This document shows positions 8,106 to 61,401 of a stretch of DNA of 64,000 nucleotides, piece after piece. The stretch is from Eledone cirrhosa (Eukaryota): the NCBI GenBank assembly GCA_964016885.1, contig OZ024748.1, forward strand, positions 6,386,001 through 6,450,000, read 5' to 3'. Below the pieces are notes generated by a model. That model worked only from the letters and a program-made list of their open reading frames with translations. It did not search any database and was not told the DNA's origin. Each line of letters starts with the position of its first letter. The stretch's first letter is position 1. The translations under genes and the position numbers were made by a program.

Positions 8106-8200
8106 AGCAAAAGTGATATTCAATTTGTTGGTAATTCAACAAATATAAATGTTTATAACTGATTCAGAGCACTCGACAAGTTTTCTGGAGTATAATAATT
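8106..8200 (-). mobile_element. Family C tail fragment (TA-inserted)
   Basis: Reverse complement matches 16980-17062 and 33353-33437 (ACTCCA..AAC(T)TGTYGAGTG..TCAGTTATAAA...TTTGC). Confidence 0.7.
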
Positions 8201-8228
8201 GAATTGTATATATATAGAGATATACATA

Positions 8229-8516
8229 GTGGTGGCTGCCAACTCGTTTTTCGAGTACGGTCACTACTTTATATCCATATAGGAGAACCCCTACCGATGC
8301 GCTGAACGAGTGTGACTTTTTAGTCCAGCCAGCGACTTGAAAACTCTGGTACAAACACTACACTTGTGACAATTATTGACACATAGTGCTGGGCCCATGG
8401 TACCATGTGACGACAAGTGCAGAGAGATCTCCAGGTATAAAGCAATGCCTGTGCTGTGAAGCTTTTATAGTGAGCAAAGGCACATCAAGTCCCACTCTCT
8501 TAACCAAGATGATATT
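8229..8516 (-). mobile_element. Family A retroposon, 5'-truncated copy
   Basis: Reverse complement of the 3' half of 661-1263. The 3' end is retained and the 5' part is replaced by a (CATA)n tract. Confidence 0.85.
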
Positions 8517-9409
8517 ATACATACATACATACATACATACATACATACATACATACATACATACATATGTGTATATGTGGTTTAAATCAACTGTTGAGTA
8601 AATATTTAAACTGTCGTAAATACTTAATGTATATGTGAATGTTCCCTATAGTGGGGTTTGTTTTGTTAACACAAAACTAACGTAGAACTCTGTGTAGCAG
8701 ATATGTACTTGTCTCTTCTCCCCCCCCCCATCCCCCTTTTCTCTCTCTCTTTCTATATATATATATATATATATATATATATAAGGGTTCTGACTTTGTA
8801 ACTCACGGAGTCTATTACTAAAAACACGTACGCGCGTAATTGTGTATCTTTATCTATCTCTCTCTCTATTTATATATATATATATATATATATATATATA
8901 TATATATATATATATATATATATATACAGTTTGTCCCAAAAACGTATACATATAATTATTAGTATGTTGTTGAAGTGTGTATACATATTTTTGGAACACC
9001 CTGTATATATAGAGAGTGAGAGAAAGAAAAAGATATTTTATACTATTTATATATGTATATTTATATATGTATATATATATATATATGTGTGTGTGTGTGT
9101 GTGTGTGTGTTCATATATAAGCTGTGTATATGTACGTCTGGTTGTGCGTGCTTGTATACTGGTGTGTGTGTGTGAATAGATGAATGAATCAAAGCCGACA
9201 TACTAACACATATCCCATCCCGGTACATAGTAGTGATGATAAACATCTACAGATTAAAGAGGAGTTTACTACTTCTGATATATATCTGATTTTATATGTG
9301 GCTTATAGCTTTGTGCCTCGTAGTGCGTTTCATTAGACGCACACACACACACACACACACACACACACACACACACACACACACACACACATATATATAT
9401 ATATATATA

Positions 9410-9615
9410 TAGGAACGAGTAGGACCCCGACGGCTGAGCTCAAGCCGTTTCGACGGCTAATTCTGGACTTTTTTTAGTCCAGAATTAGCCGTCGAAACGG
9501 CTTGATCTCAGCCGTCGGGGTCCTACTCGTTCCTATTACCCACTCTACTACCTTAAGTATTGAGTACTTTGGTGCGTTATGGTCCACCTGGTTCCTTACC
9601 ACATTTCCTTCGTTA
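9410..9615 (+). mobile_element. Family B hairpin-plus-tail element inserted in (TA)n
   Basis: ~60-bp inverted arms around a short T loop, then an ~80-bp tail with TATTGAGTAC (9558-9567). The direct arm holds GAAA-CGGCT-loop-AGCCG-TC (9494-9516), a hammerhead 3' half. Confidence 0.85.
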
Positions 9616-9644
9616 TATATATATATATATATATATATATATAT

Positions 9645-57382: not shown

Positions 57383-57978
57383 ACAACAACAACAACAACA
57401 ACAGCAACAACAACACCATAATCATCAACAACAACAACAACAACATCAACGACATCACCAATAACAACAACAACAACAACAACAAAAACATCAACGACAT
57501 CAACAATAACAACACCACCACCAACAAAAACAACAACGACATTAACAATAACAACAACACCACCAACAAAAACAACGACATCACCAATAACAACAACAAC
57601 ACCACCAACAAAAACAACGACATCAACAATAACAACAACATAATCATCGACAATAACAACAACATCAACGACATCACCAATAACAACAACAGGAACAACA
57701 ACAACAAAAACATCAACGACATCAACAATAACAACAACAACACCACCAACAATAACAACAACGGCATCACCAATAACAACAACAACAACACCAACAAGAA
57801 TATCAACAACACCACCACCACCAACAACATCAACAGCACCACAACAACAACACCACCAACAAGAATATCAACGACATCAACAATAACAACAACACCAACA
57901 AGAACATCAACAACAACACCACCAACAACAATACCACCAACAAGAATATCAACAACACCACCACCAACAACAACAACA
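57383..57978. repeat. (AAC)-rich degenerate triplet repeat
   Basis: Read directly. Confidence 0.9.
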
Positions 57979-59456
57979 TGCTATTTATCTTTCAACATAT
58001 TCCTATCGTCCGTCTTATGTCAAGATAAAACATCGCCTAACAACCAGAGCCTGCTCTCTTTGAAGAAATTTCACCCTCGGAACATAATGTCTTTCATGGC
58101 CGCCATTTTGTTTGTTTATTTGTTAGTTTCGTTGTGTGAGTAGGTGGCTGTTTGTGTGTGAGTGTGTGTGTCTGTGAGTGTGTGTGTGAGTGTGTGGGTA
58201 GGTGTGTGAGTGTGTGTGTGTGTGTGTGTATGTGAGTGTGTGTGTGTGTGTGTGTGTGTGTGAGACTGTTTCCCTCTCAATGTCTTTTGTGTAACTAATC
58301 AAGAATACAGTAGTATATGGTTTCTCTAATCCCCACCCTCCACACCGTCCCATCACTCAATATGTGTGCGTATGCGTATATACATATATATATATATATA
58401 TATATATATATATATATATATGTGTGTGTGTGTGTGTGTGTGTATGTGTGTATATATATATATATATATATATATATAAACCTTGCCATCTGCAATTATA
58501 TATCCTTCGCTCTTCTAATGAAAAATGTTTCTTTCTCGTCGTCTTCAAAGCAGTGGGTGAATAATTATATACTTGTCTTTGATGTAAATACAAATGTATA
58601 ACTATACATACATACACACATACACACACATATATATATATATATATATAATCACACACAAACATATATGTATAGGTCTTTTATTCGGCGACTTCGTTTT
58701 CTTTTCTTTTAAATTAGATTAATTATATTTATGCTCGCTGGTCGTTTGTCATTCAATGGAGTCTAATTTTAATAGACGCTTATTCTTAATGTGTATGAGA
58801 CGTTGAAAACTGAAATGATGACTGATATTTGTAGATGGAGGGTACAGCTCTTTGGACGACGAAAGGGGGAATTCGTTTGTTCATGACCTAATCTTGTGGC
58901 GATATATATCCCTAAGTTTCGGTAGCAGGTTTACCAGGATTCATGCTAAATCTGATCCTGACATGGTGCACAAGTCTCCAGCGATTGTGAAAATCGTAGG
59001 TCCCTTCTAAACCTAAGTCAAAAAACCATTGGCAATAATTGAGAACGAGTAGACAGCACGAGGCCAATTTGCAGGCTAACATAACAGGCTTCGCACGTGT
59101 TTTCTTATGATATATCACACACAGCTTTTCAGAATAGATCACATATATCCGCACTATCAAAATCTACCATGCTGATATCAAATGAAACTGTGGGATCAGA
59201 AATTTTACATTTTGCATATATATATATATATATATATATATATATATATATATATATATATATATATATATATATATATATAGTTATATCTGTATAAATA
59301 CCGAGTATAACCAAACCATCCTCAACCTGTATAAATATATACGTCGGCTGATAGTGCACTTACTATATATCTTAATTAATTACCAACACAAGCTCTAATC
59401 GTATCCAAATTAGTATCTCCACAAGTATATACACATATCTAATATGTGTATCATTA

Positions 59457-60467
59457 TCTATAAAAGGCAGATTGTTGTTGTGTGTGTGTGTGGGGGGGGG
59501 GGGGCATATTCCATGCTTATACATTTACACAATTTCAAACCGATTCGACTCAAAGTCTGTCAGAATGTTGTAAATGGTCTAACTTAGGTCAACGACTATT
59601 TATTTATTTCAAATTCACCCAGAATTACGGAAATAATCGATAAAACTAAATACATGACGCTTTACCCCTCTAATACAATTTGATAACCTCTCTCTACTCC
59701 CTTCAAAATTCGATAAAACTACATACATGCTGCAACTTTCTCTTATATACGCTTAAACTTACAGACTTCCTTTAGGAACGTCGAAGAAAGAAGAGAGAGA
59801 AGAGAGAGAGAGAGAGAGAGAGAGAGAGAGAGAGAGAGAGAGAGAGAGAGAGAGAGAGAGAGAGAGAGAGAGAGAGAGAGAGAGAGAGAGAGAGAGAGAG
59901 AGAGAGAGAGAGAGAGAGAGAGAGAGAGAACGTTTGTTTTTTAGTCGAAAAAACAATTATTCAAAAGCAACAGATAAATTTATTCAACAACAAAATAAAT
60001 AGCGATAAATCTTTTTTAAAACATCTCTCAACGAACTTGGAAGAAAGAAGTATCAGTTTATTTACTATACACAATAATATCCTCTATGAAGTCACTAAAC
60101 CTGCTAGAAACAGCACCTAACTCTTCTCCATATCACACCCCTCCCTACTGTCTTAAATTTAGAAAACACGCATTAGACAACCATGCAGAACAACTCCATC
60201 GCAGCTCTGTTGTTCGGCTGGCATCGTCTACGCGCATGTTGCGCAAGTACTGTGAAACAATAAATTTCAACACTTCTTTGCACAGAGATAATATCCATAG
60301 GTGAAACTACAATTGTCACTGCTGGTGCAGCTCCTGCTTCGGCAGTCCAGGTCTGCAATTCATTCACCCAGTGCCTGGCAGACAAAAAAGTACTGCCATA
60401 AAATGGGTGGTGCAACCTAAATTTGGTAACTTACTGATCCCGAGCAACGCTGGGCTTTAATGGTAGT
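59457..60467 (+). mobile_element. Probable non-autonomous Helitron
   Basis: 5' TCTATAAAAGGCAGA..(GT)n..AACCGATTCGACTCAAA. 3' hairpin CCCGAGCAACGCTGGG (60439-60454) followed by GTAGT, a degenerate CTAG|T end. Confidence 0.45.
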
Positions 60468-60777
60468 ATATTTATACACGTTAGTATAGTCTCGGTTATA
60501 CACTCTGTATTTATACATATATGTCTTTATGGTACACATTGGCTACAAACACAATTTATATATATATATATATATATATATAGGAAGTTATAGTTCACTT
60601 GAAGCATTTAGAACACTGGTTTAACCGCTTTACTTCCCTCCGAAGAAGAGATATTATCTCGAAAATTACTAGACTAATTGTCAACAATATCTTTTGCATT
60701 TGCATTCTTTATTCTATGTCCATACCTGCATTGTTTTGGCTTTATTATACATATACAAACGTTTATATATATATATA

Positions 60778-61401
60778 TACAATATATAGAGGGGAAAGAC
60801 ACAGGAGAGTATGTTTTTCATTACAGAATTCCTTTGAGCTCATTTAATTACATGATTATACGCGATTCCTTTGCTCCGTTATTTTTACTTGATATTTGCT
60901 CCTTGCGCTCTCTCTGCTGTTGAGCACCTTAAATTGAATAGTATAGGCTGCCATCTCTAGCAGCTTGTTCTGTTCATGGCACCAGTTACTGCTCCGAGCA
61001 CGCATTCCTCTTATGTCTACACGTGCGAAGGGTGGTTTATTTTAGTTCTCTCTCTAGTAGTGCGGACAATATCGGCCTTCCACATGCTGATGACCCACCG
61101 GGCTGTATTGGAACCCACTGAAATGGCGAAACATGCTCCTGGTGAGTGTGTACATGTGTGATTTAGGTGAGGATCGTCTTTCATTTCAATTTATACTTTT
61201 AATTTTAATGTTTTACCAATGCCTCTAGTAGCTTATATTCTTCTCACGCTGGTGGTTCGAAATTCCTGTAATGAAAAACACACTCTCCTGTGTCTTTCCC
61301 CTCTATATATTGTATTTTAAAGTGCCCAGGTAAACTATTTCCTTTGAACTCATTTAATTACAGGATTATACGCGAGTCCTTTGCTCCGTTATTTTTACTG
61401 G
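60778..61401 (+). mobile_element. Retrozyme/Penelope pLTR-like element: 510-nt unit with terminal redundancy, 5' inverted segment and hammerhead
   Basis: Direct repeat 60829-60889 = 61339-61399 (3 mismatches). Inverted repeat 60778-60826 vs 61266-61314 (1 mismatch). Hammerhead at 61081-61158. (TA)n on both sides. Confidence 0.85.
61081..61158 (+). ncRNA. Type-I hammerhead ribozyme with all three helices
   Basis: Stem I CACATG/CATGTG; CTGATGA 61087-61093; stem II (C)CCA...TGG(C) with inner GGG/CCC; GAAA 61128-61131; helix III ACATGCTC/GAGTGTGT; predicted cleavage after GUA at 61152. The closing pair of stem II is a C-C mismatch. Confidence 0.8.

What the first reader, a model, noticed from the sequence alone, without database searches (positions are those of the whole stretch)
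8169..61350. Shared 3'-tail motif TRTYGAGYNC, mostly 30-100 nt from the end of unrelated families
Plus strand: TATTGAGTAC (9558, 26585, 39603, 40730), TGTTGAGTGC (9946), TGTCGAGTGC (16992), TATCGAGCCC (19303), TATTGAGTTC (25853), TGTTGAGTGT (33366), TGTTGAGTCA (33964), TATCGAGCTC (47124), TATCGAGTAC (55023). Minus strand: 8169, 16836, 18310, 29871, 53280. A weaker CTTTGA(G/A)CTC starts the 60778 direct repeat. Inference: a cis signal recognised by the mobilising RT or endonuclease. Family D has no clear match.
Basis: partly seen in the sequence, partly recalled or inferred. Interest (0 to 1): 0.75.

Follow-up and report, generated by a model that had tools for sequence, protein, structure and literature searches.

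The report
Twin hairpins mark retroelement copying starts
The shared motif is one arm of a small bulged hairpin that a known group of telomerase-related jumping genes carries twice, each copy lying a few bases past a point where inserted copies end, so it likely tells the copying enzyme where to start.

Summary
The motif is real: 19 hits against 3.1 expected. In 780 kb of held-out genome, 66 of 90 hits lie 25-110 nt before a (TA)n run. It is the 3' arm of a hairpin, RCTC-stem-loop-stem-2-nt bulge-GAGY-RC, in the tails of Hydra-clade Penelope-like elements (PLEs). Four window families run on into Hydra-type ORFs, so these are relatives, not unrelated families.

Full-length units carry two hairpins before the ATG. 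In six families here, insertion ends lie mostly 2-9 nt 5' of them. Marine relatives agree: 35 of 40 flanks have one hairpin, 21 have two, and the first inner pair covaries (38 C-G, 13 U-A).

Best model (0.62, inferred): each hairpin positions one of two internal reverse-transcription starts, and their spacing is the PLE 'tail'. Six literature searches did not find it in print. This scan reported the twin hairpin earlier on other pieces of this genome; I reached it before looking. Added here: in sister families E and B the hairpin-1 loop varies at random between insertions (3-8 nt in E), which resembles a template-jump scar; five other families lack this.

The parts
8106..8191 (-). Family B tail; hairpin 1 at 8169-8191
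   Evidence: E 2e-4; family B runs on into a Hydra-type ORF in L145
9409..9613 (+). Family A insertion: fold-back 9409-9536, 5-nt gap, hairpin 1 at 9542-9567, tail to 9613
   Evidence: read-through to hairpin 2 and ORF in L111
9645..10015 (+). Family E insertion: fold-back ending 9922, hammerhead core from 9816, hairpin 1 at 9928-9955 (outer arm mutated in this copy), tail to 10015
9941..9945 (+). Variable loop spacer of family E hairpin 1 (3-8 nt, not inherited between copies)
10109..10180 (-).
10486..10559 (-).
16806..16853 (-). Short family C-like tail; 3' arm only
16940..17062 (+). Family B insertion; hairpin 1 at 16980-17001
18269..18380 (-). Further family; hairpin (T-A, G-C inner pairs, long loop) intact in three other copies, 5' arm mutated here
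   Evidence: read by eye
19176..19348 (+). Family C insertion; GCTC/GAGC hairpin 1 at 19267-19312
   Evidence: top hit, E 3e-5; read-through to hairpin 2 and ORF
25742..25904 (+). Family F insertion; hairpin 1 at 25842-25862; no coding partner found
26559..26594 (+). Family G hairpin 1 with long inner stem; coding partner not sought
29850..29885 (-). Short family C tail; 3' arm only
30944..30986 (-). Hairpin with G-C second pair (not matched by TRTY) heading a tandem array of ten tail repeats
33160..33439 (+). Family B 3' end: hammerhead core from 33247, hairpin 1 at 33354-33375
33532..34061 (+). Family J insertion; hairpin 1 at 33899-33973 with about 55-nt loop
39461..39658 (+). Family A insertion; hairpin 1 at 39587-39612
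40670..40781 (+). Family F tail; hairpin 1 at 40719-40739
40856..40927 (-).
47070..47175 (+). Family C tail; 5' arm mutated
   Evidence: weak, E 1.3
53206..53307 (-). Family H tail; hairpin 1 at 53280-53307 with six inner pairs
   Evidence: not among the model hits
55023..55032 (+). Motif match without 5' arm, TA end or other copy: unexplained, possibly chance or a decayed copy
60780..61402 (+). Non-coding unit of about 510-nt period with degenerate hairpin 1 (3' arm at 60832), hairpin 2 at 60898-60927 and a hammerhead-like core at 61087; likely a non-autonomous parasite
   Evidence: (E 2e-3)
61543..61614 (-).

Best explanation
The motif is the 3' arm of a bulged hairpin that Hydra-clade Penelope-like elements carry twice in front of their ORF, each copy lying a few bases 3' of an insertion end, and each hairpin likely binds the element's reverse transcriptase and sets one of its two internal start sites.

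Shown: the hairpin shape and covariation, the two copies, the position of both insertion ends, the Hydra-type ORFs of families A, B, C and E, and (TA)n targets.

Inferred steps: (1) the endonuclease nicks both strands of a (TA)n run; (2) each nicked end pairs with a short UA-rich stretch of the RNA held 2-9 nt 5' of a hairpin; (3) the start in front of hairpin 2 copies the spacer and hairpin 1, giving the arm with the 'tail', which is why the motif sits 30-90 nt from the end; (4) the start in front of hairpin 1 gives the inverted arm without tail; (5) the two cDNAs join head to head. Hairpin 2 is never copied at an end. In families E and B the enzyme likely crosses a break or block in the loop of hairpin 1 and adds untemplated bases there.
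For: Structure. In 40 marine 5' flanks, 57 anchors chosen on the outer stem only, against 0.82 in shuffles, 3 on the opposite strand and 0.04 per 160 nt of ORF. The first inner pair forms in 55 of 56 with a 2-nt bulge, against 0, 2, 8 and 20 for bulges of 0, 1, 3 and 4. In the 51 aligned rows it is C-G 38, U-A 13, none broken. G-U type pairs outnumber A-C at inner pairs 2-3 by 9 to 2, favouring the sense strand.

Transfer. A model built only from marine sequences puts motif sites in 15 of its 20 window hits. Held-out hits near (TA)n have the 5' arm in 48 of 66, far ones in 3 of 24.

Ends. Family E: 31 and 42 of 98 hits stop at two positions, 5 and 4 nt before the two hairpins. Modal gaps before hairpin 1 / hairpin 2: A 5/3, B 7/3, C 2/3, K719 6/2, K714 -/2. 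In B only 2 of 11 TATA/ATAT patches are used. In 4 of 6 marine contigs with both copies, the 3' copy stops 0-4 nt before hairpin 2; one of the four stops at the contig end.

Prediction made in advance. Family C tail + TAT + 0-9 nt + RCTC gave 438 matches and 0 control; 9 of 12 fetched loci read through into a Hydra ORF start.

Precedent. Two internal RT starts define the tail in a Poseidon element in vitro (PMC11167929, main text read). Published Hydra consensi show the hairpin by eye (PMC8557442 File S7).
Against: No binding or activity data; no RNA reads. Ends next to hairpins fit RNA cleavage or DNA-level resolution equally well. [quoted passage not shown]

The fold is weak. By my reading, single-sequence folding gave the 2-nt-bulge register cleanly in 2 of 6 window examples. 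RNAalifold predicted only the four invariant pairs. The second inner pair is unpaired in 15 of 56, 9 of them T-T. The shuffle control ignores relatedness, and several marine contigs are near relatives of each other.

Misses. 5 of 40 flanks had no anchor and 19 lacked a pair. Only 17 of 51 marine 3' flanks passed the strict descriptor, many being short contigs. L249 and L260 do not end before hairpin 2. The same prediction failed for family F: 5 matches, none a clean hairpin 2. Families F, G, H, J and the 18310 family are not linked to an ORF. The Hydra-1_Obim passages seen show no such hairpin.
Confidence: 0.62

Rival explanations
1. The hairpins direct cutting of the RNA a few bases 5' of each stem (by a host nuclease or the element protein), and ordinary target-primed copying then starts at the new 3' ends.
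For: It explains the same two sharp ends and fixed gaps. Hairpin-guided RNA cleavage is common (own knowledge). The loop scar in E and B hints that this RNA region is cut.
Against: A Poseidon protein starts internally on uncut RNA in vitro (PMC11167929). Gaps differ by family (2-9 nt) and follow the nearest UA patch, as primer pairing would.
Confidence: 0.15
2. The hairpins act as DNA, in single-stranded cDNA or extruded from the duplex, and guide the GIY-YIG endonuclease that resolves the insertion intermediate.
For: PMC8557442 ascribes the tail to endonuclease-mediated resolution. PMC11167929 cites that the D. virilis endonuclease needs the tail to cut. The first inner pair is strictly Watson-Crick.
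Against: G-U type pairs are favoured on the sense strand (also families E, F, G), whereas first-strand cDNA is antisense. The variable loop (a few to about 60 nt) argues against a duplex site. Hairpin 2 would have to be copied and then removed at every end.
Confidence: 0.13
3. The hairpins are promoter, translation or packaging elements of the 5' UTR, and insertions end nearby only because the UTR is UA-rich or because of self-priming on an antisense template.
For: Hairpin 2 ends 13-52 nt before the start codon. PLE promoters lie in the pLTR (PMC8557442). Antisense self-priming was proposed for the inverted structure (PMC3846280, passages).
Against: Other TATA/ATAT patches in the same UTRs are almost unused. 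Both ends track their own hairpin as the spacing changes from 55 to 97 nt. A non-coding unit keeps both hairpins.
Confidence: 0.07

Closest known systems
Hydra clade of C-terminal EN+ Penelope-like elements (Craig et al. 2021, PMC8557442; sections 6, 7 and 11, passages, supplement parts 2 and 53 and search passages)
   Same: RT followed by GIY-YIG, RW(K/R), DKT, CxCX5C, no CCHH, hammerhead, (TA)n targets, inverted 5' copy and one-sided tail. The Hydra-2_Amil, Hydra-1/2_Ajap and (degenerate) Hydra-1_Crog consensi contain the hairpin when read by eye.
   Different: The main text has no occurrence of 'hairpin' or the motif and puts the tail at 30-40 bp; here the two ends are about 70-100 nt apart. 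The family E unit is about 4.6 kb, not under 3 kb.
PAc Poseidon element, internal initiation (Frangieh et al. 2024, PMC11167929; parts 1-2 of 4 read, supplement text searched)
   Same: Two internal RT start sites near the pLTR-ORF junction define the tail; AT-rich targets; predicted dimer; hammerhead not needed in vitro.
   Different: Another clade. Starts lie inside the ORF in an AC-rich stem loop, and no repeated conserved signal is named. The motif was not found in its supplement text (figures not visible).
Adineta vaga Penelope elements (Arkhipova et al. 2013, PMC3846280; passages)
   Same: Inverted pLTR, optional 31-bp tail, palindromic junctions, pLTR sufficient in trans.
   Different: Explains the inversion by antisense self-priming; 'hairpin' and 'stem' do not occur in the text.
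Telomerase RNA and R2 3' UTR elements that position the template (recalled, not tested)
   Same: A structured RNA element bound by the RT fixes where a short template stretch pairs with a repeat primer.
   Different: Here the element is small, doubled, lies 3' of the start and is part of the mRNA.
Non-templated addition with template jumping by R2 RT (Pimentel et al. 2022, PMC8857657; abstract only)
   Same: Jumping requires untemplated bases, as the loop scar of families E and B would.
   Different: Not shown for PLEs; a fixed jump site inside a hairpin is not described in what I read.

Membership tests
Hydra-clade PLE | Single ORF with RT then C-terminal GIY-YIG | tested here: met
   L040, L036 (family E), L317, L341 by motif reading; Pfam gave no hit for L040
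Hydra-clade PLE | RWK and DKT motifs | tested here: met
   RW(K/R) in C, K719, K714 and 38 of 44 homologues; DK[TS] in all. The family E open frames tested start after RWK; it was seen by eye upstream.
Hydra-clade PLE | CxCX5C linker, CxxC and CxH; CCHH absent | tested here: met
   CxCX5C in L036, L317, L341 and 42 of 44; CCHH-type pattern in 0 of 44 and 0 own proteins. L040 lacks one linker Cys; L036 and L040 lack the first Cys of CxxC.
Hydra-clade PLE | GxKF/Y not conserved | tested here: inconclusive
   A loose, position-free pattern matched 19 of 44
Hydra-clade PLE | Canonical hammerhead near the 3' end | tested here: met
   Core pattern at window 9816 (E) and 33247 (B) and in many marine 3' flanks; Rfam gave no hit at gathering score; activity untested
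Hydra-clade PLE | Insertion into (TA)n | tested here: met
Hydra-clade PLE | Generally under 3 kb (a tendency in the paper) | tested here: not met
   Family E unit about 4.6 kb, from anchor offsets in L305, L310 and L036; long 3' UTR
Hydra-clade PLE | RT tree placement with reference Hydra elements | not tested
   Reference sequences were only seen in a paper supplement
Hydra-clade PLE (window families F, G, H, J, 18310, 60780) | Tail continuous with a Hydra ORF | tested here: inconclusive
   F: prediction search negative; 60780 unit is non-coding; others not sought
Naiad/Chlamys PLE | N-terminal endonuclease | tested here: not met
   The endonuclease is C-terminal
Hammerhead stem III (same ACTC/GAGT letters in File S2 of PMC8557442) | GAA directly before ACTC and a CUGANGA core | tested here: not met
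   5' neighbours vary and GCTC/GAGC dominates in marine copies; the true hammerhead lies about 60-100 nt upstream
Helitron2/HINE subterminal hairpin (recalled) | Long copies encode Rep-helicase | tested here: not met
   Long copies of A, B, C and E encode RT
Any Rfam family | Covariance-model match | tested here: not met
   0 hits in the window at gathering score; 2 chance-level hits in 5 loci

The most novel reading that the evidence does not exclude
Hydra-clade PLEs use a doubled, telomerase-like RNA positioning element that loads an RT dimer at two internal starts. In at least one lineage, hairpin 1 is also a clasp holding a broken template together, so the RT jumps across the loop and writes a random 3-8 nt barcode into every new insertion.
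Probability: 0.25. Interest if true: 0.85.

Novelty: new variant of a known kind. Interest (0 to 1): 0.7.

Why it matters
PLE reverse transcriptases are the sister group of telomerase, and how they start inside their RNA and leave a one-sided tail is open. A 20-30 nt signal, conserved across families of 32-70% protein identity and tied to both end sites, gives exact mutants for an existing in vitro assay. It also gives an annotation marker for Hydra-clade elements and their non-coding parasites; family A alone has 25,735 exact pattern matches in this genome. If the loop scar is written per insertion, it would label independent insertion events and expose a strand-transfer step not described for PLEs in what I read.

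Tried and rejected
1. Chance or mere repeat copy number: rejected by position tests, held-out data and family collapsing. Raw count alone is not enough.

2. Pol III B box or initiator-type linear motif (recalled consensus, compared by eye): rejected, since the variable letters covary with an upstream arm.

3. Hammerhead stem III, HINE/Helitron2, Naiad, Rfam families: see membership test.

5. The repeat finder was swamped by microsatellites. Pfam found nothing in L040.

6. Family F read-through search negative.

7. Random loop as a clade-wide feature: rejected. It is absent in A (100 of 100 listed copies same length, two alleles in 92, counted by eye), C, F, G and K719. In B the linkage test has little power.

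8. Scar at the hammerhead cut of family E: none; 45 of 45 copies are the same at seven of eight columns.

9. Clade specificity rests on one CCHH-type PLE end without anchor and on supplement passages in which Naiad/Chlamys matches looked coding. It was not tested broadly.

10. Two requested genome stretches did not exist, so the held-out set is 78 stretches.

11. Literature searches cover open-access papers only. Repbase reports, subscription journals, supplementary figures and the supplement of the 2026 retrozyme preprint (part 1 of 5 read) were not seen and could describe the hairpin.
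Full report
1. Observation. The motif occurs 19 times in the window against 3.06 expected. Fourteen of the 18 cited sites match it exactly; three are near matches, one is mislocated (60832, not 60778), and five hits were missed. The hits belong to about nine groups, and one permuted motif was as frequent, so the count alone is weak. Position is the strong signal: 16 of 19 lie 25-110 nt before (TA)4, against 18.5% background. In 78 genome stretches taken at round coordinates (780 kb), 66 of 90 do, and 21 of 36 families. In the 380 kb fetched last it was 39 of 53.

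2. Anatomy. Most carriers read (TA)n, a long fold-back, a unique tail holding the motif, then (TA)n. This is the inverted copy plus one-sided tail described for Penelope-like elements (PMC8557442; PMC3846280). [quoted passage not shown] The diagnostic motifs are those of the Hydra clade. Tails of families A and B and C also run on into Hydra-type ORFs, 32-70% identical to one another. The tail is therefore also the 5' UTR, and the motif is inherited, not convergent. Families F, G, H, J and 18310 are not linked to an ORF.

3. The motif is half a hairpin. An RCTC arm lies upstream, closing a variable stem with a 2-nt bulge on the 3' side. Held-out hits near (TA)n have it in 48 of 66 cases, far hits in 3 of 24; by family 10 of 21 against 1 of 15. 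I then fetched 78 marine metagenome loci encoding relatives. Forty had a near-complete match and at least 90 nt of 5' flank; the other 38 were left out of this count. Using only the outer stem as anchor, 35 of 40 had a hairpin and 21 had two, against 0.82 anchors in shuffles and 3 on the other strand. The first inner pair formed in 55 of 56 with a 2-nt bulge and in 0-20 with other bulge sizes. In the 51 aligned rows (five anchors dropped for short flank, non-GCTC start or poor fit) it is C-G 38, U-A 13. The second pair is looser (41 of 56). Only 25 of 56 match TRTYGAGYNC. A covariance model from these foreign sequences ranks motif sites in 15 of 20 window hits and finds one more hairpin at 30944-30986. 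Published consensi from a coral, a sea cucumber and, degenerately, a sea louse show it by eye; the Hydra-1_Obim passages do not. Weak points: RNAalifold predicts only the invariant pairs, single-sequence folds often choose another register, and the shuffles ignore relatedness.

4. Two hairpins, two ends. In read-through copies a second hairpin follows the usual 3' end. Family E copies stop at two positions, 31 and 42 of 98 hits, 5 and 4 nt before the two hairpins. Modal gaps are 5/3 in A, 7/3 in B, 2/3 in C, 6/2 in a 719-aa family and 2 before hairpin 2 in a 714-aa family. The trimmed counts are shifted for hairpin 1 of A and E by private changes in the reference copy, so those two gaps come. 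Other TATA/ATAT patches are nearly unused: 2 of 11 are used in B. Four of six marine contigs with both copies end 0-4 nt before hairpin 2, one of them at a contig end; two do not. The advance prediction for family C succeeded: 438 matches, 0 control, 9 of 12 loci reading into an ORF start. The same prediction for F failed. The non-coding unit at 60780-61402 keeps a good hairpin 2 and a degenerate hairpin 1.

5. Mechanism. A Poseidon-clade protein starts reverse transcription at two internal RNA sites whose interval is the tail, and is predicted to be a dimer (PMC11167929). I infer that in the Hydra clade each hairpin binds the protein and presents a UA-rich stretch just 5' of it to a nicked (TA)n primer. 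The start before hairpin 2 yields the tailed arm with the motif; the start before hairpin 1 yields the inverted arm. This is inference (0.62). RNA cleavage beside the hairpins (0.15), a DNA-level endonuclease signal (0.13) and a UTR role (0.07) remain.

6. A scar in the loop. In family E the bases just 5' of the motif are the most variable of 190 columns (1.9 and 1.5 bits) and unlinked to subfamily markers, which are linked to each other. Among 96 pairs of copies differing at no more than one other column, 9 share these two bases, about the random rate of 0.12. In the first 100 of 434 genome matches the spacer is 5 nt in 58, 4 in 21, 6 in 10, 3 in 7 and 7-8 in 4; the commonest sequence occurs 7 times (counted by eye). 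Sister family B is intermediate, with 19 of 100 off the modal length (by eye). Family A has 0 of 100 length variants, and C, F, G and the 719-aa family show no such site. Hairpin 2 of E is the same in the four read-through copies shown, and the hammerhead cut is invariant. The pattern resembles untemplated addition during a template jump (PMC8857657, abstract). One copy begins exactly at the hammerhead cut and spans the whole hairpin (L298), so a nick or block within the loop is as plausible as a meeting of the two RNA ends.

7. Known and new. The elements are members of a known clade on every motif tested, except that family E is longer than typical; tree placement was not tested. The hairpin pair was not found in print in six searches or in the clade's defining paper; closed sources were not seen. 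Earlier notes of this scan report the same twin hairpin on other pieces of this genome. I had reached this reading before that call, and those notes are not independent support. Look-ups for the variable loop returned nothing.

8. Verdict. A real, conserved cis element of Hydra-clade PLEs; new variant of a known kind; interest 0.7.

Noticed in passing
window 1-268; L024:272-1470: 3' end of a different PLE family with a CCHH-type endonuclease and a hammerhead-like core; it inserts in (TA)n but has no bulged-hairpin anchor.
   Followed up: partly
family E copies, e.g. window 9753 and L001-L030: 5' truncation points pile up 183-193 nt upstream of the motif (26 of 55 hits not at the reference edge): either an RNA start or a cDNA snap-back site.
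   Followed up: no
window 30159-31050, minus strand: Ten tandem 83-nt repeats, each running from the loop of hairpin 1 to the tail end, separated by (GA)9: repeated re-initiation or later slippage.
   Followed up: partly
window 60780-61402: Non-coding unit of about 510 nt with both hairpins and a hammerhead-like core; partial copies in L204 and L307. Likely a retrozyme-like parasite.
   Followed up: partly
L317-L346: Two further Hydra families with many uninterrupted 714-719 aa frames; their hairpin 2 closes a loop of about 55-65 nt.
   Followed up: partly
L298:7372 (minus): A full-length unit starts exactly at the predicted hammerhead cut, a single hint that cleaved RNA is used as template.
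   Followed up: no
window 9412-10015, 10109-10640, 40670-40970: Insertions of different families stack next to each other within one (TA)n run.
   Followed up: no
L096:8040-8115, L196 (minus, near 4500): Local duplications of hairpin 1 within single family A tails.
   Followed up: no
window 660-1250, 8220-8510, 14670-15270: Copies of another interspersed repeat, about 600 nt, unrelated to the motif; not classified.
   Followed up: no
window 51790-52240: Tandem array of about 65-nt units separated by short (TG)n runs.
   Followed up: no
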